Virus record (IMG/VR): IMGVR_UViG_2718218135_000001 | Span: 49,251-113,250 of that record | Source: a virus | Lineage: Duplodnaviria; Heunggongvirae; Uroviricota; Caudoviricetes | DNA length: 64,000 bases | Strand: one strand, 5' to 3' | Shown here: positions 6,467-51,900 of the stretch, one piece after another | How positions within the stretch are numbered: the first letter of the stretch is position 1 | How the letters are laid out: the number at the start of each line of letters is the position of its first letter | Program-made: the position numbers and the translations under genes | The notes under the pieces: generated by a model | What the model was told of the DNA's origin: nothing | Database searches by the model: none | What the model saw: the letters and a program-made list of their open reading frames with translations, nothing else

Positions 6467-9400
6467 ATGTCACAAAACGTAGAGTTTGTCCTGTCGCTGG
6501 AAGACAAGCAGTTTACAGCGTCAATCGACCGGGCGGGTAAGCTACTTACCAGATTCGGGGAGCAGGCCACAAAACCAGCTCAGAAAATTAACAATCTGGA
6601 ACGCTCGTTGGGTTCGGTCTCCCGCATCATCGGCGTTCTGGAGTCCAAGCTCGATGCCACGGCAGACAAACTACAGGATGTAGCTGCCGGCTTCGAACTT
6701 GTGTCTGATGTTTCGCGCAAGACGCGAGGCAACATTACCAGCCTCAATTCAGGTCTCAAAACCCTGATTGAGCGCGTCGACACAACCACCTCTTCCGTTA
6801 ATAAGCTCACCACATCGTTGCGCAAGGTTCAGTCTGAACTCAATGAGTTTTCCGATTGGGCAACGTTCGCTGGTAAGAGCGCCAGCCGCTTCGGTACGGA
6901 GGTAAAAGAAGCCTCTACATCTGTGAGTGGTATGAATACGCGCCTTAACACCACGACGAAGCGTCTCAGTAATTGGGGTGTCACAACGAACCAGGCTGCC
7001 GAGGGGCTGAAGAAAGTCCGCGATCAGATGGATGCGGTGATTGGCCGCCAGCAGCTGATCAGCAAGCCGGTGCGTGTGCGCACCAGCGGCTACGGTGAGG
7101 GCGGTGGTAATGGCGGTGGCGGTCGACACAGCGGTTCCTATGGCCACGGCGGGCGCGGTGCTGAAAATGGCGTGTTCTCTGGTCTGCGCGGCAATATTTT
7201 CCTGCTGGGCGAGATTGGTGATGCGGCAAGAACGGTAACTGACATCCTGTTCGGCTGGCAGAAGCCAATCGTCGAAGCTGCCTCCAAAATGGAGCGTATG
7301 TGCGTCATGTTGCGCGGGCTGAACAAGGACAAGGCCAACCCTGGCAAAGCAGCCGCAGAGGATATGCAGTACATCGTGGATATGGCGCAAAACGCCCCGT
7401 TTGCGATGCAGGCGCTGACCGATTCCTTCGTTAAATTCCGCTCGGCAGGTCTCGATCCTACTGACGGATCGCTGAAAGCATTGGTGGACTCTGTTGCACG
7501 CTTCGGCGGCGATAGTGAACTGCTAAAACGCGCAGCAGTGGCCGTCCAGCAGATGTCCGGTAAGGGCGTCGTTTCGATGGAAGAACTGCGTCAGCAATTA
7601 GGTGAAGCCGTTCCTAACGCGATGAAAGCGATGGCAGACGCTGCCGGCATTACTATGGGGGAACTGACCAAAGCAGTCTCCAGCGGTACTGTGGAAGCGA
7701 AACAGGCGTTATCGCTGATGTTCGTTGGTCTGCGTGCAGAGAACGAAAACGCCGCCAAAGACATGATGCAAACCTACACCGGTGCGCTGGCGCAACTACA
7801 AACCTCCTTTACGTTGTTCGCCGATCGTGTCGGTCAGACGGGCTATCTGGATTCTCTCTCTAAGGGAATGAAAGAACTAGCCTCCATCATGAATAGCGCA
7901 GAAGGGATTTCGTTTGCTAATTCTTTAGGTTCGGGGTTAACGACGGCAATCGATGGGTTGCGTCAGCTTGCTCAATGGTTAGCAAAGAACCAAGAGCTGG
8001 TAATTAATCTTGGTAAGGTCGTGGCCGCGATGGTTGCGTTCAAACTGATGCGAGCAGGGATCATGGGGGTAGTTGGCGCTGGGAGCCAGATGGTTAGCAC
8101 CTTTGCCACGATGGCGACCGCCATACAGACTCCATTTAACCTCGGCGCTACAGCAGTAACTCGATTCAATCGTGCGGCACGTATGGGGCTGGCTCCGATC
8201 CCCTCTCTTATTTTCGCCATCCGTGGGGCGATTACGGGGCTTAAAGGCGCTTTTGCTGGATTAACGGCGTTCATTGCAGCAAATCCAATTGGCGCTGCGT
8301 TTACCGTGGCAACCGTGGCCGTGGCCGGGTTGATCACGTATATGACCATGCTTCGCAGCGAAACGTCAAAAGTCGTTGACGAGATTAGGAAAATACCAGA
8401 GGCGATGACGGCGGCCAAACGTGCACAAATGGCGGAGTATAAAGCGCGTCTTGAGCAACAAATCACGCAAAAGGAACAAGAGTTAAAATCTGGCGAAAAG
8501 GTGGTTTATGGGCCGGGTATGGCCGGAACTGCAGTAAAGATTAATCAGGATGAACGTAAGCGTATAGAAAATGAGCTAAATGACCTTCGTGAGAAACGCG
8601 ATAAAACTACTGGGGCAATTGAACGCGGAGACACTGCTGTAGCCAAACGTCTTGCAAAAGATGCGGCAGAATCACAGATAGAGAAAATACGGGAAGAGAA
8701 TAGAGACTTTGCGGCAACATTCGCTAAAGCTCGTCAAGAGGCTCTGGAGAAGATCCAAAAAATCAATGATGACGATTCACTTTCTGATGACGAAAAGAAC
8801 AAACTATTGGCACCGTTACGTGAAACGGTAAACAAAAGCTATCTGGAGCCTGCGCAAAAACTGGTTGATTCACTTTCTTCTCGTAAGAATGCGACCGAGA
8901 AGCAAATCGCGACTCTTAATGATCAGCTTGAAAAAGCCAAAAAAGATGGCAATACCGAGCAGATCCAGAAACTGCAAGGCAGTATTCGTGGTTATCAGGA
9001 GCATTTGGAAGCCGTTGCTCAGGAGCTGACTCAGGCAGAGTTCGAGAGAGATAATGCGGCCAAAACTGGTAAGGGCGTAATGTCAAACCAGGGGACTGTT
9101 CTTGGGTTAGGTACAACTGATAAAGCTGCTCAGAAGGCGCTGGCGCAATATATGCGAAACCAGATGGATTCTGCGACTTATCAGCGTACTTTGCCTGACG
9201 GCACTCCGATGATGGACTTCGAAGGTAAGCCGATTATTGGGCCTAAACAACTCAAGACGCAGCTTAATTTGCAGAAAGCATCCAGTGCCAGCTCTCTGGA
9301 GAAAATGAGCGATGCGGAACGCGCCGCAGCCATTGCAGCGCTGACCAAAGCGCGCGAACAGGATGCCGCAGCAGCGGAAAAAGCCGGGCGACGTACAGCC

Positions 9401-21364: not shown

Positions 21365-21945
21365 TGGCATTCAGAATGAGTGAACAACCACGGACCATAA
21401 AAATTTATAATCTGCTGTCCGGAACTAATGAATTTATTGGTGAAGGTGATGCATATATTCCGCCTCATACAGGTCTGCCAGCAAACAGTACCGATATTGC
21501 ACCGCCAGATATTCCGGCAGGCTTCGTGGCTGTTTTCAACAGTGATGAGGCATCGTGGCATCTCGTTGAAGATCATCGGGGAAAAACCGTCTATGACGTG
21601 GCTTCCGGCGACGCGTTATTTATTTCTGAACTCGGTCCGTTACCGGAAAATGTTACCTGGTTATCACCGGATGGGGAATATCAGAAGTGGGACGGCACAT
21701 CCTGGGAGAAGGATGAGGAAACAGAAAAATTGTTTCAGGTACGGGAAGCGGAAGAAACAAAAAAAAGTCTGATGCAGGTAGCCAGCGAGCACATTGCGCC
21801 ACTTCAGGATGCTGTAGATTTGGAGATTGCAACGGAGGAAGAAGCATCGTTGCTGACTGCATGGAAGAAGTATAGAGTTTTATTGAACCGCATTGACACA
21901 TCAACGGCACCGGATATTGACTGGCCAACAATACCAGCAGAGTAA
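21364..21945 (+). CDS. tail fibre assembly protein (Tfa-like)
   Basis: 193-aa ORF translationally coupled (TAATG) to fibre gene; N-terminal region resembles Tfa-type chaperones. Confidence 0.55.
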
Positions 21946-25673: not shown

Positions 25674-25678
25674 AAATT

Positions 25679-25709
25679 ATGCATTGGCGCAATGTACGCG
25701 CCAATGCAT
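25679..25709. terminator. hairpin between convergent genes (terminator or centromere-like palindrome)
   Basis: ATGCATTGGCGC-AATGTAC-GCGCCAATGCAT perfect 12-bp inverted repeat, A-run on + side. Confidence 0.4.
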
Positions 25710-25725
25710 AAGTACAGTGTCAGCT

Positions 25726-40591: not shown

Positions 40592-40787
40592 ACGAGAGAA
40601 GGAAACCCTGCGTGAAATCAGCAAGTGGAAGGAGTTCTACGCCAACTGGAAGCCGAAGACCAGAGCCAAACTGGAGCGCATGAATCTTGTCGCCAACGTT
40701 TCTCCAAAGGGATGTATTGAGAACTATCAACTGACTGAAAAAGGTTATTTGTTGTTGCAGCAATTGACTGAGGCGGGGGCATACTGA
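40575..40787 (+). CDS. small hypothetical protein (70 aa)
   Basis: GAAGGAG RBS; overlapping small-gene array. Confidence 0.3.
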   Translation: MSMLSKREKETLREISKWKEFYANWKPKTRAKLERMNLVANVSPKGCIENYQLTEKGYLLLQQLTEAGAY

Positions 40788-40939
40788 TGATTCCATACAT
40801 CATTTTATCATTCACTGGTGGCGTGGGCCTCGGCCTCGCAATCTGCCGCGCCCTGGTCCAGCAGGAACTGAAAACCAAAACACTTCGTGTCGGTAAGCGT
40901 GTGTATCGGGTTGTTCACGAGACGGGAGTGCGAAAATGA
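40787..40939 (+). CDS. small membrane protein (50 aa), paralog-like of 40412 ORF
   Basis: Starts ATGATTCCATAC; TM helix then RVYRVV motif; stop overlaps next start. Confidence 0.2.
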   Translation: MIPYIILSFTGGVGLGLAICRALVQQELKTKTLRVGKRVYRVVHETGVRK

Positions 40940-41241
40940 GCAATTTGACTTCCTTCGACTGGTGGCTGGCAACCTACCTTGTTGCGGCCGGCTTCGGATT
41001 TGCCTTTTACGTTGGTCAGTTAATCGTAAAGCTACTGCTGATAAGATTCGCCAGCGATAAACGCATAGACGACGGTCTGTGGCGTCTGGGGCCCCTGTTA
41101 GAGACGCATTACGGCGAACTCAAGGAAAACGAAACTATCACTATTCAAGCGAAGCGTTTTACCGCCATCATCACGAGAACTTCGGAACAAAAGGGGAGCC
41201 TGATCAAAAAGATAGCAACTAAACGCATCACAGATAGATAA
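40936..41241 (+). CDS. small membrane protein (101 aa)
   Basis: N-terminal TM helix (WWLATYLVAAGFGFAFYVGQLIV). Confidence 0.35.
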   Translation: MSNLTSFDWWLATYLVAAGFGFAFYVGQLIVKLLLIRFASDKRIDDGLWRLGPLLETHYGELKENETITIQAKRFTAIITRTSEQKGSLIKKIATKRITDR

Positions 41242-41258
41242 GTATTTACTTACCTATC
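41233..41258. promoter_or_regulatory. conserved intergenic motif A copy, extended palindrome (GATAGATAAGTATTTACTTACCTATC)
   Basis: 12-bp inverted arms with one mismatch; at the edge of the non-coding tRNA region. Confidence 0.5.
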
Positions 41259-41984
41259 TAATATGTATAAGATCACTTTGTTTTCGTTGAGATGCGACTG
41301 TTTGAACGTTAAATATAACTGCAAACGAAGATGCATACCTGGCAGTAGCCTAAGAAGCCAAACACCAGCGAGGTCAGTTTCCAGCCTCGTCACCAAAATG
41401 GGACACACTGAGCGAGTGTGATTGCAGAACGCAGAATAGGGCATATTGCACCATCCATGCCCTATTCAATGAAGTAACAGAATGGGCGGTTGGTTTCATC
41501 ATTCCATTCACCCATCCCGGTTTCAGCTGACCGTCCATTCTGTTACGTCATTTCCATTACTTATGTCGTTTATACTTGGGTTAAAAGCGGCGACGTAACC
41601 CGGCTGACTTGGTTAGTCAGCACATAACGTTGAGATCACTGATTTTTCTTAAAATCATACAGGCGATTCCACATAGCTGTAGCGACTGATCAATATGTTG
41701 GGTTGAACATTAATCGGTTCAGTGATCTCAACGTTGTGAAAGCAGGATTAATTAACCCTCTAGTGAAAACATTGTTGCCTTTATTGCCCCTGGCTTCACA
41801 ACATGTATGATTCCATACATCTAATAAGATCGAAGAATCTAACGGCAATCAACCACCGAGAAAGATTCCAGATCTTCGCTCATATGAGCGAGCCACATAC
41901 CTTGTCTGGCACTAACGTAAAGTGCAAGTTGCGGGAAAGTTTCTGGCTGCCTGGTTGTCCATAAGCTAGTACCGCCGCGAATAT

Positions 41985-42059
41985 GATGGTGTAGCTCAGT
42001 GGTAGAGCGGTTGACTGTTAATCAACTGGTCGGTGGTTCGAGTCCACCCACCATCGCCA
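41985..42059 (+). tRNA. tRNA-Asn (anticodon GTT)
   Basis: Cloverleaf by hand: acceptor GATGGTG/CACCATC, D-arm GCTC..GAGC, anticodon stem GTTGA/TCAAC with loop CTGTTAA, T-arm GGTGG-TTCGAGT-CCACC, discriminator G, CCA encoded; differs from E. coli tRNA-Asn as I recall it. Confidence 0.75.
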
Positions 42060-42213
42060 ACATAGCGCTGAACGGTTTGGATTCGCCACCACCGTCCGAA
42101 CGAAAGACTCCGCAAATGTCGCCAGACCGTTCAGCGCTGTGATAGACACGGCAGACGTTTTTTAACCATTGCTTCTAAGCATCGTAGCAACACTTTTTTC
42201 AGCGCAAAATCCA

Positions 42214-42235
42214 AAGGGGCTTCGGCCCCTTTTTG
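42214..42235 (+). terminator. rho-independent terminator
   Basis: AGGGGC-TTCG-GCCCCT followed by TTTTT. Confidence 0.6.
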
Positions 42236-42313
42236 CTATCAAGTCGCATATGCAACCAACTTTTTTTAGCTTATAGTTAAGTTCAGTAGTAGAATGCTAC
42301 GCTTCGTCGAGAA

Positions 42314-42829
42314 ATGACGATTATGGAGTCTATCGTGAAATTTAAAATCCAGCATTTGCAGGCAGCAGTGGCACTGGTTCTTGCCAGTATCCAGCCGCAA
42401 CCCAAAGCGGTTGCGTGTCAGCCTACGATTGTAGAACGGGTTTATGAGATGGGCGCTAGAGTCAACAAAACCGACATCAGTGATCTTACAGCTGCTCTCA
42501 ATGAATTGGCTAAAGAACTGCGTTCAAGCCGCGCTGAACTTGCTCGTTATGCTGACACTGACTTCTTTGCTGCTATCAAAGTAGCGGAAGAAATTAAGAA
42601 TCAAACTATTCATGTAGCCGGTATCGCAGAATCTTTTGTTTTGATGTTACCTGAAAAAGACGTCATCATGTCTTACGACAAAAACACTGTTGAGTTTGCG
42701 TTTTTTAAAGCTATTAAAATGGTCAGTATTGCGACCAAAAACTATCTCAATCTGATTGATCAGATTACACACACTTCTGTAGTGCGTGACTCTGGTGTCA
42801 ACCTTTTAGCCATGAACCATTCTAGCTGA
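42314..42829 (+). CDS. hypothetical protein
   Basis: 171-aa ORF after terminator; TAGAAT -10-like element upstream. Confidence 0.4.
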   Translation: MTIMESIVKFKIQHLQAAVALVLASIQPQPKAVACQPTIVERVYEMGARVNKTDISDLTAALNELAKELRSSRAELARYADTDFFAAIKVAEEIKNQTIHVAGIAESFVLMLPEKDVIMSYDKNTVEFAFFKAIKMVSIATKNYLNLIDQITHTSVVRDSGVNLLAMNHSS

Positions 42830-42997
42830 ACTTTAGCGATCGTCATCTTCTTCATCATTCTTTTTCTTCTAACAAATCATTCTCATCAATCTGGCTCAGA
42901 TGGCATTCCAAAGTTGGCGTTATTAGGCGCTTTTTACTATTTAGCGTTTAAGATGGTTTGTCTACATAATTTATTCAGAATTTACGTAAGCTATATA

Positions 42998-43030
42998 AAT
43001 GATTCCATACTTGTAAGGTATGGAATCATT
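42998..43030. repeat. perfect 13-bp inverted repeat (AATGATTCCATAC-N7-GTATGGAATCATT)
   Basis: Exact palindrome about 100 bp upstream of recombinase gene; ATGATTCCATAC core also at 40787 and 41807. Confidence 0.6.
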
Positions 43031-43128
43031 TTCAAAAACAGTCTATTTTACTGTTGATCATACAAAACTTAGGCCTAACATACTGTTTATAAATACAGTA
43101 AAAACAGGCTTCACTCAGTGAGTGGACT

Positions 43129-44232
43129 ATGAAAAACACTTTTGATAAAGCACGCGCAGCAGAAAACACCTCTAGAGAAGCCATCGAGTATCTCGAACGC
43201 GCTTCCGGTTTGTCAGCAGTGTCGACCACCAATTTCGACGGTGACATGTCGTTTTCTTCCGCATTCATGTTATTCACTCGCTTATCTTTGCTGATAACGA
43301 GACGTCGACCTGAAATAGCTGTTCATTGTATTTTGATACATGTAATGCCGCATATCTGTGAAGTAAAAGTAAGTGACATTAGTAGGGTTTTAGTCAACCA
43401 GCTGGTGAACCCATTAATACTTGAGGGCAAGATCGTCCAGGGCAGACGTGTGTTCTCGCTGATGAAGCAGTTTCTCAGTTGGTGTGCATTTCAGGGCTTA
43501 ATTGATACATCCCCATTGAACGATATGTCGCTTAACAGAGTAGCCGGTGGCGCGAAGCCCACGCCGCGCGAGCGCAAACTGACCGACGCAGAGGTCTGGG
43601 TCTTTTGGAATGTATGGGACTACTTCAACGTATGTGAGGGTACAAAGTGGGCGGCCAGATTATGCCTTGTAGCGGCCAGACGACCAGATGAAGTGCTCCG
43701 AGCTAAAAGATCAGAATTCAACCTCGAATATAATTTATGGAATCAAGGAACGAGGAATAAATCGGCTCGCCAGCACTCGTTACCATTAAGCCCGCTAATG
43801 CGCAAATGTGTTGAGGAGCTGATCAAATACGGAAAAGGCAGCCAGTGGCTTGTTCCTTCAAACAAGAAACAGGGTGAGGATGTGCCAATGTCTAAGGTGG
43901 CCATATCACAGGCGTTGAGAAGGATTTTAGAACGTCCAGAGTTGATGGAGCTTGAGCCATTTACTCCCCGAGATTTGCGTCGTACTGCGCGTAGTTACTT
44001 CCCCGCGTTAGGCATAAGTCAGGAGGTATCCCGCAAAATTATGAACCACAGTCTTGAGGGGATAGATCGAGTATACGATCGACACGATTATATAGACGAG
44101 ATGCGAGACGCCTTAAACAGTTTTTCGGCGTACATCGCATCAATCGTAGAGAAACAGGATTTAGAGGAGATAGATCATAAGTTCAAGGGAGATCGACTCG
44201 CTACTGAGCTAATCCGTGTAAATTTCTCATAG
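43129..44232 (+). CDS. tyrosine recombinase / integrase
   Basis: C-terminal catalytic region RDLRRTARSYF ... MNHSLEGIDRVYDRHDY (R..H..R..Y pattern). Confidence 0.65.
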   Translation: MKNTFDKARAAENTSREAIEYLERASGLSAVSTTNFDGDMSFSSAFMLFTRLSLLITRRRPEIAVHCILIHVMPHICEVKVSDISRVLVNQLVNPLILEGKIVQGRRVFSLMKQFLSWCAFQGLIDTSPLNDMSLNRVAGGAKPTPRERKLTDAEVWVFWNVWDYFNVCEGTKWAARLCLVAARRPDEVLRAKRSEFNLEYNLWNQGTRNKSARQHSLPLSPLMRKCVEELIKYGKGSQWLVPSNKKQGEDVPMSKVAISQALRRILERPELMELEPFTPRDLRRTARSYFPALGISQEVSRKIMNHSLEGIDRVYDRHDYIDEMRDALNSFSAYIASIVEKQDLEEIDHKFKGDRLATELIRVNFS

Positions 44233-44616
44233 CGACTTGATTGCCTCAACAACCCGCTCCGACGCACCACGTTGGTCACCGAAACGTCGACGGAAGGCTT
44301 CCAGAACTAGTTTTTCATCTTTAGTCAGAGGGGCTGTGCCTTCGTCGCGAAAAAACTCTAACAGCTCTGGATGACGCTCTTCCAGCACCATTAGCATCAA
44401 TCGGACCGAATCGGCATCCAATGCTTTAGCCAACGCTCTGACCTTGTCGATCGGAAGCGGGATTTTGCCGCTCTTGATAAGTGAAAGATTGTTAGGATTT
44501 TTATAGCCTGCTTCTTTCGCGATGGTCGCCTGGCTTTTCGGAGAAATCGCGATTAAAGCGTCAATGTAAGCAGCGTAGCGACCTACTTTAGCTTCTGTTA
44601 TTTCGTTGGTAGCCAT
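44227..44616 (-). CDS. HTH transcriptional regulator (candidate repressor)
   Basis: HTH-like QATIAKEAGYKNPNNLSLIKSGKIP; divergent from 45198 operon with motif B in the shared region. Confidence 0.45.
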   Translation of the reverse strand: MATNEITEAKVGRYAAYIDALIAISPKSQATIAKEAGYKNPNNLSLIKSGKIPLPIDKVRALAKALDADSVRLMLMVLEERHPELLEFFRDEGTAPLTKDEKLVLEAFRRRFGDQRGASERVVEAIKSL

Positions 44617-44872
44617 AATTATCAACCTGCGTGTTTTGATTTTATATGGTAAGTGCTTACTGATATTACATCAAAGGTTAGTGTTGTAAAGACTTATCTA
44701 TTTTTTTTCGTAGAGTTATTGACCGCAAAAGGCTTCATTAATAGACAACTATCTAAAAAACAACTCATTTAAGAACTTAAAACTAAGTTGTATTTGATAT
44801 ATAAGTATTCCGTATTGATACAATAGGTAGTAGTATTGCAAGGCATTTACGTGTTCAGTTGGATGATATGAA

Positions 44873-45085: not shown

Positions 45086-45163
45086 CACACCCCTCCCATC
45101 CTCTCTAGCGCCTGTACGAACAGATTAGATGCCTGTTCGTACAGTGATAAATTACGCACATCA

Positions 45164-48937: not shown

Positions 48938-51900
48938 ATGAAGGCTCTGATGGTCAGAACTGACTTCTCCCTGGGAGAGTCAGCTCTAAAAGCAGAAAAC
49001 GCGGTGAAAATCGCGAGAGACGCTGGCTACACCGCTGTCATTTCCGCTGACAGCATGAACATTGCCAGTGTGATCCCCCTGCAGCGTGCCGCTGGCGACG
49101 ACATGGCGGTTATTTGTGGTGTTAAGCTGAATGTGGTCGACGATCCGACATACGAGCATCGCGCCCGCCTGGCGAAAGAGTCAGGAGGATGTATGGAATC
49201 ATTGGTGCGTGATCGAAGCTACTGCTTCACGGCACTGATAAAGAATGAGCAAGGTTATCGCGACGTGTGCGAACTGATGACCTTAGCCAACAAGCGCGAG
49301 CAATTCTACTTTGTTCCGCGTCTGGCACTTGACCAGCTGGCGGCCGCATATGCCAAAGGCAACATCATCCTGCTGACGTCCGACATTGGCAGTGTATTCC
49401 AGCGCCGGGACTTCGCAAAGATTATCGGGACGCTGGTGACAGCTGGAGGACGCGATAACTTCTACAGCGTGGTTTATCCGCACCCTACCCCATTCTACGA
49501 CCAGATTAACGTCCGGGCGATGAAAGTGGCGAGCGCACTGAAAATAGAGCCAGTGGCGTTCTATCCCGCTTATTACGAAGCGATCGACGACGCTGACATT
49601 AAAGACATTGCGCACATGGTTACGAACAACATCAAAATCGACCAGCCGCATCGTCTGCGCATCCCCCACCAGCGAGATAACGCTGTTAATGGTCGTCGCC
49701 ATCTCCTTGAAGCGCTGAAAGCCTTCTCCGTTCGCATGGGCGTACCGGTAACAGCTGCAATGGTCTCAACAACGCAGGACACCATTATTGAAGCCTGCAC
49801 ATGGCGCTGGCATGAACTGCCACCAGCACTGCCCAAGATGGCAGACGACGAGCCTGCAACGCTGATGAAGCTGGCTGTCGCGGGGCTACGCAAGCGTCTA
49901 ACTACTAAAGAGTTTGGCTACACACCACCGGCTTCTGAGCACCGAGTGTATGTTGAGCGACTGAAGTACGAAATGGACACACTGACCCGTCTGGGCTTCT
50001 GTGGCTACTTCCTGATGGTACGCGATCTGATGAATCACAGCCGTGAAACAGGAATACCGGTTGGGCCAGGTCGTGGTTCCTCTGCCGGTTCTCTGGTGGC
50101 GTGGTGCATAGGCATAACCAACGTCGATCCTATCCGTCACGGTCTTCTGTTTGAGCGTTTCATCAACCCTGAACGTCTTGACTTACCGGATGCGGATCTG
50201 GACTTCAGCCAGGCACGTCGTCATGAGGTGATCGAGTATCTGAATGAACACTATGGCGAAGATTACGTTGCCGGTATTCCAAACTTCACCTATCTGGGCG
50301 CCGCTTCTGCGCTGCGAGACACTGCGCGTATTTACGGTGTCGACGCTGCGGATATGTCGGTATCCAAAGAGTTCAAGAATCTGGAAGACGATAGCCTGTC
50401 TCTGGAAGAGCTGCGCGAGCAACTGGCCAGCCTGGACAAATACGCCACGAAAAACCCGGAAGCGTTCAAAGCGGCGTGTAAGCTGCAAAGCCTGATGCGT
50501 GGTTTTGGTCGTCACGCTGCGGGGATGATCGTCGCTGGCGTTCCACTGGTAGAGCGCACGCCCGTCGAGCTGCGTGGCAACGCTCGCTGTATTGCGTTCG
50601 ATAAACGTTACTGCGAGGCGATGGGGCTGATTAAGCTGGACGTTCTCGGTCTGGCAACGCTCGATCTGCTGGATAGCGCGAAACGCTACATCAAAGAGAG
50701 TACCGGGGAAGACATCAATCTCGATGCTATTCCACTGGACGATCGTAAGGTTCTGGATGGGTTCGCTGCAGGGTACACGCAGGGCGTATTCCAGCTGGAG
50801 TCCGGCCCCATGCGCAAGCTGCTTAAAGATCTGGGCGGTGGCATTGAGCCAATGAGCTTCAAAACCGTTGTCGCCACGACCGCACTCTTCCGACCTGGCC
50901 CGATCCAATCCGGCATGTTGGACGACTATGTCTCCGTGGCCAAAGGCTTCATGGCTCCACATTCAATTCATCCGCGTCTTGAGGAAGTCACCCGGGAGAC
51001 TAATGGTGTTTTGCTCTATCAGGAACAAATCATGCAAAGTTCCCGAGTACTTGCCGGGTTCTCTATGGCCGAAGCAGACGCTCTGCGTTCCGCTATCGGT
51101 AAAAAGAACATGGATAAGATGAAAGCGATCGGCAGCGATTTTGTAGAACGAGCACAAGCAGGCTGGGTGACACTGTCACTCAAAAATGGAGGTACTGTAG
51201 AGGTTCACAAACACGCAAAACTGGATTGCTCAGACGGTAAGCGTAGAAGCTACAGCGAGGCTATTAGTGACGGCATAGACTACGTGGAGATCGTCTCTGA
51301 ACAAGAAGGTCTCAGTAAGGAAAAAGCCCAAGAAATATGGGACGCCTTTGAGAAGTTCGGTGGATATGCCTTCAACAAATCACACAGTGTTGCTTATTCT
51401 TTAATCAGCTATCAGTCTATGTGGTTAAAGACACATTACCCTGCTGAGTTCTTCGCTGCTGCGCTCACCATTCTGGGCGAGGATAAGCACCAGGGGCTGG
51501 TTAAGGATGCGCTGACCTATGGCATTCGCGTATTGCCACCAGACGTTAACGTGTCATCTAACCGAATTGAGATCCGCACGCTGGAAGACGGCAGTCAGGT
51601 TCTGTATGCACCATTCTCTGCTGTGAAAGGCTGCTCTGAGAATGGTTGCCAGGCCATCATGAGAGCGCGTGAGAAAGTTGGCGGCAAATTCGAGTCACTT
51701 GAGCAATTTGAGGAAGCGGTCGAGAAGCGTGCATGTAACAGCCGGGTACGCGAATCACTGCAAAAAGTCGGTGCGTTCGCATCGATTGAGTCTGGCAGTC
51801 TGCCAGCGACAGATCCGGAACGGCTGCGCGACCAGGCAGAGTTGATGGGTAATCTGGTGATCGACGCTGTAAAAGCCTCTCGACCGTTCGAGATGAACCC

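What the first reader, a model, noticed from the sequence alone, without database searches (positions are those of the whole stretch)
40787..43030. ATGATTCCATAC core repeated three times, once as a perfect 13-bp palindrome upstream of the recombinase
The dodecamer occurs at 40787 (start of a 50-aa ORF), at 41807 (inside a local hairpin ATGTATG-ATTC-CATACAT) and at 43001, where it forms the exact inverted repeat AATGATTCCATAC-N7-GTATGGAATCATT about 100 bp upstream of the tyrosine recombinase gene. This fits recombinase arm or core sites, a regulator operator, or a dispersed terminator-like element.
Basis: seen in the sequence. Interest (0 to 1): 0.5.

Follow-up and report, generated by a model that had tools for sequence, protein, structure and literature searches.

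The report
Lox-like recombinase site with satellite half-sites
The repeated 12-mer is most likely the DNA half-site recognised by the tyrosine recombinase of an SSU5/pMT1-type phage-plasmid: two inverted copies form a 33-35 bp lox-like crossover site just upstream of the gene, and three or four single copies nearby are conserved at the nucleotide level for a reason not yet known.

Summary
ATGATTCCATAC occurs five times in the window, against 0.34 expected.

The window is an E. coli SSU5/pMT1-like phage-plasmid. Two copies form a perfect 14-7-14 inverted repeat (42997-43031), 97 bp upstream of a tyrosine recombinase gene.

A palindrome with a 7-bp spacer sits about 50-135 bp upstream of every Int homologue I examined, down to 43% identity. 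This includes two plasmid contexts that are not phage and have no HTH neighbour.
- Both arms change together with Int: TGATTCCATAC versus TGACTCCAGAC.
- Spacers fall into discrete classes.
- Sequence identity between relatives breaks exactly at the site.
- Neither the int gene nor the window-type site (exact TTGTAAG-spacer form) is ever chromosomal in 5,426 complete E. coli genomes.
- Int lacks an arm-binding domain.

Best reading: a lox/dif-like core site of a plasmid recombinase, probably for multimer resolution, that also marks a cargo-exchange junction. Most relatives with the window's arm type carry a LexA box between site and gene.

The single copies are really a 15/16-mer, (A)ATGATTCCATACATC. 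Synonymous sites inside them are conserved and all copies point toward the core site. They are probably extra Int-binding half-sites; their role is unknown.

The HTH-operator, lambda-type arm-site and terminator readings are not supported.

The parts
42997..43031 (.). Full lox-like core site. Left arm AAATGATTCCATAC (42997-43010), 7-bp spacer TTGTAAG (43011-43017), right arm GTATGGAATCATTT (43018-43031).
   Evidence: perfect 14-nt arms; 79 viral contigs carry the same arms next to an int homologue (78 could be oriented on int); more distant Int lineages keep the palindrome with symmetrically changed arms; sequence identity between relatives breaks at the site.
42974..42988 (.). Conserved A/T-rich left-flank element (consensus tcAgAtTTtAAaAAA; here TTCAGAATTTACGTA). 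It lies about 10 nt outside the left arm; cargo sequence diverges beyond it.
   Evidence: the consensus holds across 36 representative loci chosen to span the left-flank clusters, which are otherwise unrelated.
43035..43049 (.). Conserved right-flank element AAAACAGTCTATTTT. It follows a 3-4 nt stretch next to the right arm that is hypervariable among near-identical relatives.
43054..43100 (+). Putative int promoter: -35 TTGATC (43054-43059) and -10 TAACAT (43076-43081), overlapped by a LexA-box-like TACTGTTTATAAATACAGTA (43081-43100; CTGT-N8-ACAG at 43083-43098).
   Evidence: Read from the sequence. TTGATC is conserved in relatives. A strict CTGT-N8-ACAG is present in 39 of 51 unique int-upstream sequences. 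Promoter and LexA assignments are inferences from consensus only.
43129..44232 (+). Tyrosine recombinase gene (Int, 367 aa), the presumed binder of the motif.
   Evidence: Pfam PF00589 at 6.5e-9 and PHROG integrase. AF2 model with pLDDT 84.8, best PDB matches lambda Int 75-356, Tn1549 Int, IntI and XerH. R185, K211, R284 and Y316 invariant, H307 nearly invariant; the His of HxxR is replaced by Arg. No arm-binding domain.
40787..40801 (+). Satellite 1: ATGATTCCATACATC, the first five codons (MIPYI) of a 50-aa ORF, overlapping the stop codon of the preceding 70-aa ORF.
   Evidence: an island of >=90% conservation among wobble positions that are only 10-40% conserved; kept in relatives.
41807..41821 (+). 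Satellite 2: ATGATTCCATACATC in non-coding DNA, about 165 bp upstream of tRNA-Asn (41985-42059).
   Evidence: Kept in Klebsiella, Nissabacter and Serratia relatives with different flanks. In K. michiganensis it reads GTGATTCCATACATC, the same A-to-G change as both arms of that element's core site.
43735..43747 (-). Degenerate satellite inside int (here CTTGATTCCATAA, 3 mismatches to the 13-mer). It is an exact TGATTCCATACATC in pMT1-type relatives and TGATTCCATACAT in Klebsiella relatives, where it encodes (D)VWNQ.
49188..49203 (-). Satellite in dnaE: AATGATTCCATACATC on the minus strand (plus strand GATGTATGGAATCATT, codons for x-C-M-E-S-L).
   Evidence: at least 90% conserved at every position (14 of the 16 invariant) across 31 unique sequences, while neighbouring third codon positions are about 30% conserved; the 16-mer is present in 78 of 80 loci and the 12-mer in 80 of 80, even where the preceding amino acid differs. 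DnaE of lineages without the satellite has a different peptide at this position.

Best explanation
AATGATTCCATAC is the half-site recognised by the phage-plasmid's own tyrosine recombinase, Int (43129-44232). Two inverted half-sites around a 7-bp spacer (42997-43031) form a lox/dif-like core site.

Proposed mechanism, inferred and not shown: one Int monomer binds each arm. Two sites synapse as a tetramer and strands are exchanged across the 7-bp spacer. On a low-copy plasmid prophage this would resolve multimers. It would also allow cointegration with related elements carrying the same spacer, which would explain why this site is the sharp junction between the conserved int side and a highly mosaic cargo side.

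In most relatives int appears to be transcribed from a LexA-repressed promoter lying between the site and the gene.

The single copies (40787, 41807, 49188-49203, and a degenerate one in int) are the same half-site extended by ATC. They are under nucleotide-level selection and all point toward the core. I take them to be additional Int-binding half-sites with an accessory or regulatory role. That role is not established.
For: Shown here:
(1) Motif excess: 5 copies against 0.34 expected.
(2) The same arms sit next to an int homologue in the 78 of 79 viral contigs that could be oriented on int, and in Y. pestis pMT1, Kluyvera and Buttiauxella.
(3) Arms co-vary with Int. Homologues of >=56% identity have TGATTCCATAC arms. 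Homologues of 43-50% identity (Erwinia, Xenorhabdus, Providencia, an unnamed plasmid) have TGACTCCAGAC in both arms. The spacer is always 7 bp.
(4) Int is the only gene common to all these contexts. L163 and L166 are not phage-plasmids and have no HTH gene next to int.
(5) Breakpoints fall at the site. L014 and L103 are 100% identical for 600 bp to the left and 76% identical from the first 50 nt on the right. L103 and L036 show the converse. All four combinations of left clusters 7 and 14 with right clusters 4 and 6 exist with the same spacer. There are 36 left-flank clusters against 15 right-flank clusters.
(6) Spacers form discrete classes without point variants, while the 3-4 nt just outside the arm vary freely.
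(7) Always plasmid-borne. The int region is in 251 of 5,426 complete E. coli genomes, 0 of them on a chromosome. The 61-nt window-type site query matched 38 plasmid records and no chromosome.
(8) Int has a lambda-Int-like core-binding plus catalytic fold with a helical N-terminus. It lacks the PF13356 arm-binding domain carried by its more distant relatives.
(9) Satellites: synonymous sites are conserved. The satellite shares the A-to-G change of the arms in K. michiganensis. Only copy 1 is a real ORF start.

From the literature: palindromes within 1 kb of a tyrosine recombinase gene were its real target in about half of the cases tested (PMC10250229). Phage-plasmids are expected to carry recombinases for dimer resolution (PMC7969092).
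Against: - No binding or recombination has been shown; everything here is comparative.
- Breakpoints at a conserved 33-bp patch could also come from homologous recombination.
- The His of the HxxR catalytic motif is Arg across the whole family, so activity is assumed, not demonstrated.
- SOS-repressed expression is unusual for a housekeeping resolution system.
- Conserved A/T-rich flanks suggest the functional site is larger than a simple lox.
- Half-sites kilobases away have no precedent in lox, dif or att systems.
- Xenorhabdus and Providencia relatives have the core site but no satellites, so satellites are not needed for core function.
- Int-less SSU5 and L152 still keep the satellites, although int loss is rare and looks recent.
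Confidence: 0.72

Rival explanations
1. The palindrome is purely a transcriptional operator. A dimeric regulator, either Int acting only as an autorepressor or another factor, would control int and/or the adjacent cargo gene. The single copies would be weaker operators of the same regulator. No strand exchange would occur.
For: The site lies about 24 bp upstream of the putative -35 of int. Conserved A/T-rich elements flank it. The satellites lie at a gene start and upstream of a tRNA. Both plus-strand satellites coincide with promoter-like -10 hexamers in the scan. The catalytic His is replaced by Arg.
Against: The neighbouring HTH is absent in two contexts that keep the palindrome. The remaining catalytic residues, including Tyr316, are invariant or nearly so across 37 homologues. 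Sharp recombination junctions fall at the site. Spacers are constrained but tolerated in either orientation, which is unexpected for a promoter-embedded operator. The promoter scan gives no more hits than shuffled sequence (8 against 7.8), and the -35 of copy 1 is not conserved.
Confidence: 0.12
2. The palindrome is the core of an attP. Int would integrate the phage-plasmid into a chromosomal attB, and the single copies would serve as arm-type sites of an intasome.
For: Int belongs to the P4/lambda integrase branch. A 7-bp spacer equals the lambda overlap length (my own knowledge). Int sits beside a tRNA region and the putative lysogeny repressor.
Against: 0 chromosomal copies of int or of the window-type site query in 5,426 complete E. 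coli genomes, against 255 plasmid places for int. Int lacks the arm-binding domain. The single copies are identical to the core half-site and lie 0.7-6 kb away at distances that vary with cargo size. The arms are perfectly symmetric, unlike typical att cores. Two non-phage plasmids carry the same module.
Confidence: 0.08
3. The repeats are structural or chance elements: a hairpin terminator at 42997-43031, plus unrelated copies that are conserved only because they lie in conserved genes or descend from a duplicated 'MIPYI' ORF start.
For: Every copy begins with ATG and could encode MIPY(I). The palindrome would fold as a 14-bp hairpin. Another 14-7-14 inverted repeat in the window (25677-25711) sits between convergent genes like a terminator.
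Against: The stem is A/T-rich and no T-tract is conserved after it. The ORFs starting at copy 2 and at the dnaE antisense copy are 5-49 aa and not conserved. Synonymous sites within the motif are conserved far above their neighbours. Exact 12-mers at this frequency are not expected by chance.
Confidence: 0.03

Closest known systems
Cre/loxP of phage-plasmid P1, and Cre-type systems Dre/rox, Vika/vox, Nigri/nox, Panto/pox
   Same: A plasmid-prophage tyrosine recombinase with one target site close to its gene. The site has two perfect inverted repeats of about 13 bp around a short asymmetric spacer. The expected role is multimer resolution (PMC7969092, PMC10250229).
   Different: The spacer is 7 bp, not 8. 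Int is not a Cre homologue: lambda Int is the best structural match, and Cre matches only at E about 0.01. The flanks are conserved and A/T-rich. There is a LexA box. Conserved satellite half-sites lie kilobases away. Activity is untested.
Lambda/P4-type integrases and the attP core (C-O-C')
   Same: Same fold for the core-binding and catalytic domains. The closest sequence families are P4-like integrases. A 7-bp crossover region equals the lambda overlap (my own knowledge).
   Different: No N-terminal arm-binding domain. No distinct arm-type sites. Arms are perfectly symmetric at 13-14 bp. Never found integrated.
Single-recombinase Xer modules (XerS/difSL, XerH/difH)
   Same: One recombinase with a near-palindromic site immediately upstream of its gene, acting in dimer resolution (my own knowledge). 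XerH is among the structural matches.
   Different: Those are chromosomal, located at the replication terminus and dependent on FtsK. Here the module is on plasmids, and no link to FtsK or a terminus was seen (GC skew is uninformative).
Accessory recombinase-binding repeats: the third 13-bp repeat of FRT, DR1/DR2 of integron attI, DR1/DR2 of the Tn4430 IRS
   Same: Extra copies of the recombinase's own core-type half-site besides the two that flank the crossover (my own knowledge).
   Different: The known examples lie within tens of bp of the core. Here the copies are 0.7-7 kb away, embedded in coding sequence, and all oriented toward the core.
LexA-controlled integron integrase intI
   Same: A tyrosine recombinase gene with an SOS box in its promoter and a variable cargo region starting at the adjacent recombination site (SOS control of intI is my own knowledge).
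   Different: No attC-like or repeated sites inside the cargo. The cargo consists of ordinary operons. Int is not an IntI orthologue.

Membership tests
Tyrosine recombinase superfamily (PF00589) | Catalytic-domain homology and fold | tested here: met
   Pfam PF00589 at 6.5e-9. The AF2 model matches lambda Int, Tn1549 Int, IntI, XerH and Cre.
Tyrosine recombinase superfamily (PF00589) | Catalytic residues R-K-H-R-H/W-Y | tested here: inconclusive
   R185, K211, R284 and Y316 are invariant and H307 nearly invariant. The first His (of HxxR) is Arg281 throughout the family, whereas arm-domain-bearing relatives have His. The effect on activity is unknown.
Cre/lox-type simple site-specific recombination system | Target made of two inverted repeats of about 13 bp flanking a short asymmetric spacer, located within about 1 kb of the recombinase gene | tested here: met
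   A 14-7-14 perfect inverted repeat 97 nt upstream of int. The same layout was found in all Int lineages examined. The spacer is 7 bp rather than 8.
Cre/lox-type simple site-specific recombination system | Recombinase is a homologue of Cre | tested here: not met
   No PDB sequence match. Foldseek ranks lambda Int first (E about 3e-7) and Cre at E about 0.01-0.07.
Cre/lox-type simple site-specific recombination system | Recombination between two sites without accessory proteins or sites | not testable with these tools
   Needs an in vivo or in vitro recombination assay. The conserved A/T-rich flanks leave accessory factors possible.
Lambda/P4-type integrase with attP | N-terminal arm-binding domain and arm-type sites distinct from core sites | tested here: not met
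   PF13356 is present only in hits of <=33% identity. This family has a short helical N-terminus. The dispersed copies equal the core half-site.
Lambda/P4-type integrase with attP | The element is found integrated in chromosomes | tested here: not met
   The int region has 0 chromosomal places against 255 plasmid places, and the 61-nt window-type site query has 0 against 40, in 5,426 complete E. coli genomes.
Plasmid multimer-resolution system | Single site per replicon, recombinase encoded alongside, found on plasmids of different kinds | tested here: met
   Median of one place per genome. The module is also present on two non-phage, plasmid-like contigs.
Plasmid multimer-resolution system | Loss of the recombinase or site raises multimer level and lowers plasmid stability | not testable with these tools
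   Requires genetics.
LexA (SOS) regulon promoter | CTGT-N8-ACAG box overlapping the promoter | tested here: met
   TACTGTTTATAAATACAGTA at 43081-43100. A strict box occurs in 39 of 51 unique relatives. LexA binding itself was not tested.
Operator of the adjacent HTH (putative lysogeny repressor, 44227-44625) | The site co-occurs with the regulator gene | tested here: not met
   L163 and L166 keep the Int gene and palindrome without an adjacent HTH gene.
Intrinsic terminator | G+C-rich stem immediately followed by a T-tract | tested here: not met
   Not reported by the terminator scan. The stem is A/T-rich, and the sequence after the arm is variable and then A-rich.
Integron (IntI/attI/attC) | Cassettes bounded by repeated attC-type sites next to attI | tested here: not met
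   No further full or half sites within the cargo regions of 18 relatives.

The most novel reading that the evidence does not exclude
The satellites are functional, polar Int-binding sites, so the SOS-induced recombinase has a second job. When Int is expressed, it would bind half-sites embedded in the replication module (the p50 start, upstream of the tRNA, inside int and dnaE). There it would either loop this 8-kb region onto the core site to control recombination, or directly modulate the replication and lytic genes. In parallel, the heterospecific spacer classes would make the core site a programmable cargo-exchange junction for SSU5/pMT1-type phage-plasmids, including the Y. pestis pMT1 plasmid.
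Probability: 0.2. Interest if true: 0.75.

Novelty: new variant of a known kind. Interest (0 to 1): 0.55.

Why it matters
SSU5/pMT1/pHCM2-type phage-plasmids are common in Enterobacteriaceae; the int region is present in 251 of 5,426 complete E. coli genomes and in Y. pestis pMT1. They carry resistance and virulence cargo.

- **Maintenance and cargo exchange.** The papers I searched do not describe this recombinase's target site. Defining it would give a handle on how these elements are maintained. It would also help explain why their cargo varies exactly here. ARG-containing elements in this group neighbour the ligase and PhoH genes (PMC9600943); in this window and in a Klebsiella relative those genes lie in or beside the same region.
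- **A possible tool.** The system is a candidate lox-like tool with a 7-bp spacer, several natural spacer variants that may be heterospecific, and two arm specificities. A published 8-bp-spacer, Cre-homologue search (PMC10250229) would have missed it.
- **The satellites.** Half-sites kept by selection inside essential coding sequence have no obvious precedent among lox, dif or att systems. If Int binds them, they would be a new layer in tyrosine-recombinase biology.

Tried and rejected
- **Rfam.** Gathering and E-value searches around the motif returned only tRNA-Asn and sub-threshold chance hits (GAIT on the palindrome, permuted tmRNA).
- **Promoter/terminator scan.** No more hits than in shuffled sequence. 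The coincidence that both plus-strand satellites overlap a '-10' was not backed by a conserved -35.
- **Satellites as scars of past insertions at pseudo-sites.** Rejected. There is no second degenerate arm, both flanks are homologous in relatives, and they lie in conserved coding sequence.
- **Satellites as starts of a paralogous small-ORF family (MIPYI).** Rejected. Only copy 1 opens a conserved ORF.
- **Cassette capture with a second site at the far end of the cargo.** No such site was found.
- **GC-skew test for an origin or terminus at the site.** Uninformative.
- **Correlating satellites with presence or absence of int.** Uninformative. Int is nearly universal (69 of 70) and the int-less genomes are close relatives.
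- **Apparent similarity between the int-internal WNQ/WRQ codons and the two arm classes.** Judged too weak to use.
- **Literature search for the motif itself.** No relevant paper.
- **Genome-contig scan with the Int protein.** Returned only 5 loci.
Full report
**What the window is.** The 5 kb around the finding are 99.7% identical to E. coli plasmid pCUVET18-789.1 (NZ_CP115313.1, IncFIB, 113.7 kb). They are 79-91% identical to parts of Salmonella phage SSU5, Escherichia phage Cyrano (pLF82) and Klebsiella SSU5-like phages. The window is therefore an SSU5/pMT1-type phage-plasmid.

The local gene order is: DNA ligase, three small ORFs, a structured non-coding region, tRNA-Asn (41985-42059), a remnant YafO toxin-antitoxin ORF, the palindrome, int (43129-44232), a convergent HTH gene (44227-44625), a 70-aa ORF, cobT, an AAA ATPase and dnaE. 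The HTH gene is called the putative master repressor in Cyrano (PMC9928086).

**The observation.**
- The 12-mer is present exactly at 40787(+), 41807(+), 42999(+), 43018(-) and 49191(-). That is 5 hits at <=1 mismatch against 0.34 expected, and no shuffle reached 5.
- The inverted repeat is perfect over 14 nt with a 7-nt spacer, at 42997-43031. It ends 97 nt before the int start codon.
The dnaE copy and a degenerate copy inside int (43735-43747) were missed.
- The three single copies share a longer unit, (A)ATGATTCCATACATC.
- No copy occurs in the parts of the near-identical plasmid that I fetched outside the window.

**The palindrome belongs to the recombinase.**

*Close relatives.* An exact-pattern scan of viral contigs found 79 loci with AATGATTCCATAC-N7-GTATGGAATCATT. 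In the 78 that could be oriented on int, the site lies directly upstream of the int homologue. Y. pestis pMT1, Kluyvera and Buttiauxella have it too.

*Distant homologues.* I fetched the DNA around more distant Int homologues. In every case a palindrome with a 7-bp spacer lies about 50-135 bp upstream of the gene.

| Lineage | Int identity | Arm |
|---|---|---|
| Nissabacter | 63% | CAATGATTCCATAC |
| Serratia | 59% | TGATTCCATAC |
| K. michiganensis | 58% | TGTGATTCCATAC |
| Erwinia | 48% | GTGACTCCAGAC |
| unnamed 120-kb contig | 48% | TGACTCCAGAC |
| Xenorhabdus | 46% | ATGTGACTCCAGAC |
| Providencia | 45% | ATGACTCCAGAC |

*What this shows.* Both arms change together, as expected for the binding site of a protein that evolves alongside it. 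The Erwinia contig and the unnamed contig are not phage-plasmids and have no HTH gene next to int. Int is thus the only gene that always accompanies the palindrome. This argues against the HTH-operator reading.

**The site behaves as a recombination junction.**
- Among relatives, the int side of the site is homologous, while at least 36 unrelated sequence clusters abut the other side. There are 15 right-flank clusters.
- L014 and L103 are 100% identical for 600 bp up to the left arm and only 76% identical from the first 50 nt after the right arm.
- L103 and L036 are 100% identical on the right and unrelated on the left.
- All four combinations of two left types with two right types occur with the same spacer.
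- Homologous recombination using the conserved patch could in principle give the same pattern, so this evidence is strong but not proof.

**The spacer.**
- Spacers fall into discrete classes when oriented on int: CTACTAT, CTATTAA, TTGTAAG (this window), TTGGTAG, TATGTAA and others.
- Within the well-sampled CTACTAT class (37 loci) there are no point variants, although the 3-4 nt just outside the right arm vary freely among otherwise identical sequences. Two pairs of rarer spacers differ by a single base.
- In three independent cases the spacer alone is inverted between genomes that are otherwise the same. L004 and L039 have 98-100% identical flanks over 600 bp on each side. L041/L158 are inverted relative to the CTATTAA class. 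pNT1F34-108k (CTTACAG) is inverted relative to this window (TTGTAAG) with one further change.
- A sequence that is constrained but works in either orientation relative to its neighbours fits a symmetric-arm crossover site present once per replicon. It does not fit a promoter element.
- The flip itself is most simply explained by template switching or recombination between the perfect arms. This is inference.

**What kind of enzyme Int is.**
- It has the Pfam phage-integrase domain and belongs to the P4-like integrase PHROG and NCBIfam groups.
- Its AlphaFold model (pLDDT 84.8) matches lambda Int residues 75-356, Tn1549 Int, IntI and XerH best. Cre matches only weakly.
- It lacks the N-terminal arm-binding domain (PF13356) that its 28-33% identical relatives have, and instead has a short helical N-terminus.
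- R185, K211, R284 and Y316 are invariant and H307 nearly so in 37 homologues. The His of the HxxR motif is Arg throughout the family.
- In 5,426 complete E. coli genomes the int region is found 255 times on plasmids (251 genomes) and never on a chromosome. The 61-nt window-type site query matched 38 plasmid records and no chromosome.
- Taken together, this is a lambda/P4-type catalytic core working on a simple symmetric site on plasmids. It works like Cre/loxP or a plasmid dif module without being a Cre homologue. Multimer resolution is the most likely primary function. That is an inference; phage-plasmids are expected to need such a function (PMC7969092).

**Regulation and flanks.**
- Between the site and int lie a conserved TTGATC (-35), TAACAT (-10) and a LexA-box-like TACTGTTTATAAATACAGTA (43081-43100).
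- A strict CTGT-N8-ACAG occurs in 39 of 51 unique relatives. It is absent from the Nissabacter-type lineage and from the TGACTCCAGAC lineages.
- Cyrano is induced by ciprofloxacin (PMC9928086).
- A conserved A/T-rich element (tcAgAtTTtAAaAAA) lies about 10 nt outside the left arm in nearly all cargo types. A second conserved element follows the right arm. The functional unit may therefore be about 85 bp and may involve a bending protein. This was not tested.

**The single copies ('satellites').**
- They are not chance and not mere shared ancestry. In dnaE, every position of the 16-mer GATGTATGGAATCATT is at least 90% conserved (14 of the 16 invariant) across 31 unique sequences, while neighbouring third codon positions are about 30% conserved.
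- The dnaE 16-mer is present in 78 of 80 loci even where the preceding amino acid differs.
- DnaE of lineages without the satellite has a different peptide at that position.
- At 40787 the 15-mer is an island of >=90% conservation that forms the first five codons of a 50-aa ORF.
- Copy 2 (41807) keeps the 15-mer in Klebsiella, Nissabacter and Serratia although its flanks differ. The window's local hairpin is not conserved.
- In K. michiganensis, copy 2 carries the same A-to-G change as both arms of that element's core site. This is one covariation event and supports a shared binder.
- A fourth copy inside int is exact in pMT1-type and Klebsiella relatives and degenerate here.
- The copies to the left of the core are on the plus strand and those to the right on the minus strand, so all point toward the core. 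Distances on the cargo side vary with cargo size.
- They are not ORF starts apart from copy 1, and they are not scars.
- Xenorhabdus and Providencia relatives have a core site but no satellites. The int-less SSU5 and L152 retain them, but int loss is rare (1 of 70) and looks recent.
- I conclude they are additional binding sites for the same protein, most likely Int. Their role is accessory or regulatory and unknown.

**Comparison and novelty.** The core site is a new member of the lox/dif/att-core kind. It was predictable by the same logic that has found Cre-type targets (PMC10250229). That screen would have missed it because it required an 8-bp spacer and Cre homology. None of the papers I found describes this site or contains the motif in a relevant context.

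Several features go beyond a routine new member:
- the arm-domain-less lambda-type enzyme on a perfectly symmetric site;
- the Arg-for-His catalytic substitution;
- the SOS box;
- the natural spacer classes and spacer flips;
- above all, the selected satellite half-sites inside coding sequence.

I rate it a new variant of a known kind, of moderate interest.

Noticed in passing
window 43011-43017; L004 vs L039; L041/L158 vs the CTATTAA class; L169 vs the window: The 7-bp spacer alone is found exactly inverted between genomes whose flanks are otherwise identical. There are three independent cases, one with an extra base change. This suggests flip-flop of the loop between the perfect arms.
   Followed up: partly
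window 43032-43035 and the about 9 nt left of 42997; relatives: The 3-4 nt immediately outside the right arm are hypervariable (ACTG, GCTG, AGTA, AGTG, CGTG) among sequences that are otherwise identical for hundreds of bp. The linker on the left also varies. The arms and the spacer do not vary.
   Followed up: partly
window 43081-43100: A near-consensus LexA box (TACTGTTTATAAATACAGTA) overlaps the putative int promoter. It is conserved in most relatives with TGATTCCATAC arms and absent from relatives with TGACTCCAGAC arms.
   Followed up: partly
Int residue 281 (window about 43969-43971): The His of the tyrosine-recombinase HxxR motif is Arg (PRDLRRT) in the whole family. Arm-domain-bearing relatives have PHDLRRT.
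   Followed up: partly
window 42314-42829: This 171-aa ORF is a fusion left by a deletion of about 440 bp. Close relatives have two genes here, a hypothetical protein plus a YafO-family toxin (L002).
   Followed up: partly
window 25677-25711: A second perfect 14-7-14 inverted repeat (TTATGCATTGGCGC-N7-GCGCCAATGCATAA) lies between convergent genes, just after a pair of ORFs of 221 and 119 aa whose counterparts in relatives are a ParA-like AAA ATPase and a small hypothetical protein. It could be a terminator or a centromere-like site.
   Followed up: no
window 45112-45144: A perfect 12-bp inverted repeat, CTGTACGAACAG-N9-CTGTTCGTACAG, overlaps the start of cobT (45129).
   Followed up: no
window 41242-41984: A 740-bp non-coding stretch between the 101-aa ORF and tRNA-Asn contains long inverted repeats: 23 nt at 41468/41530 and 20 nt at 41623/41719. 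It gives only a sub-threshold permuted-tmRNA hit. It may be an origin or structured RNA region next to the replication genes.
   Followed up: no
window 49188-49203 (DnaE residues about 84-89): The DnaE peptide C-M-E-S-L that hosts the satellite exists only in lineages with the satellite. K. michiganensis and Xenorhabdus DnaE have unrelated residues there. The coding sequence seems to have accommodated the DNA motif in a variable loop.
   Followed up: partly
L005 (SSU5) 7060-7225; L152: SSU5 and one metagenomic relative lack the whole cargo-site-int-HTH-70-aa-ORF module. In SSU5, tRNA-Asn is followed directly by cobT with no remnant of the site; for L152 only the absence of int and HTH was checked.
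   Followed up: partly
window 21707-21905; window about 34000-36000: There is an Rfam IS009 RNA match at 21707-21905. A fimbrial operon (usher, chaperone, YehD-like) is carried as cargo upstream of the replication module.
   Followed up: no
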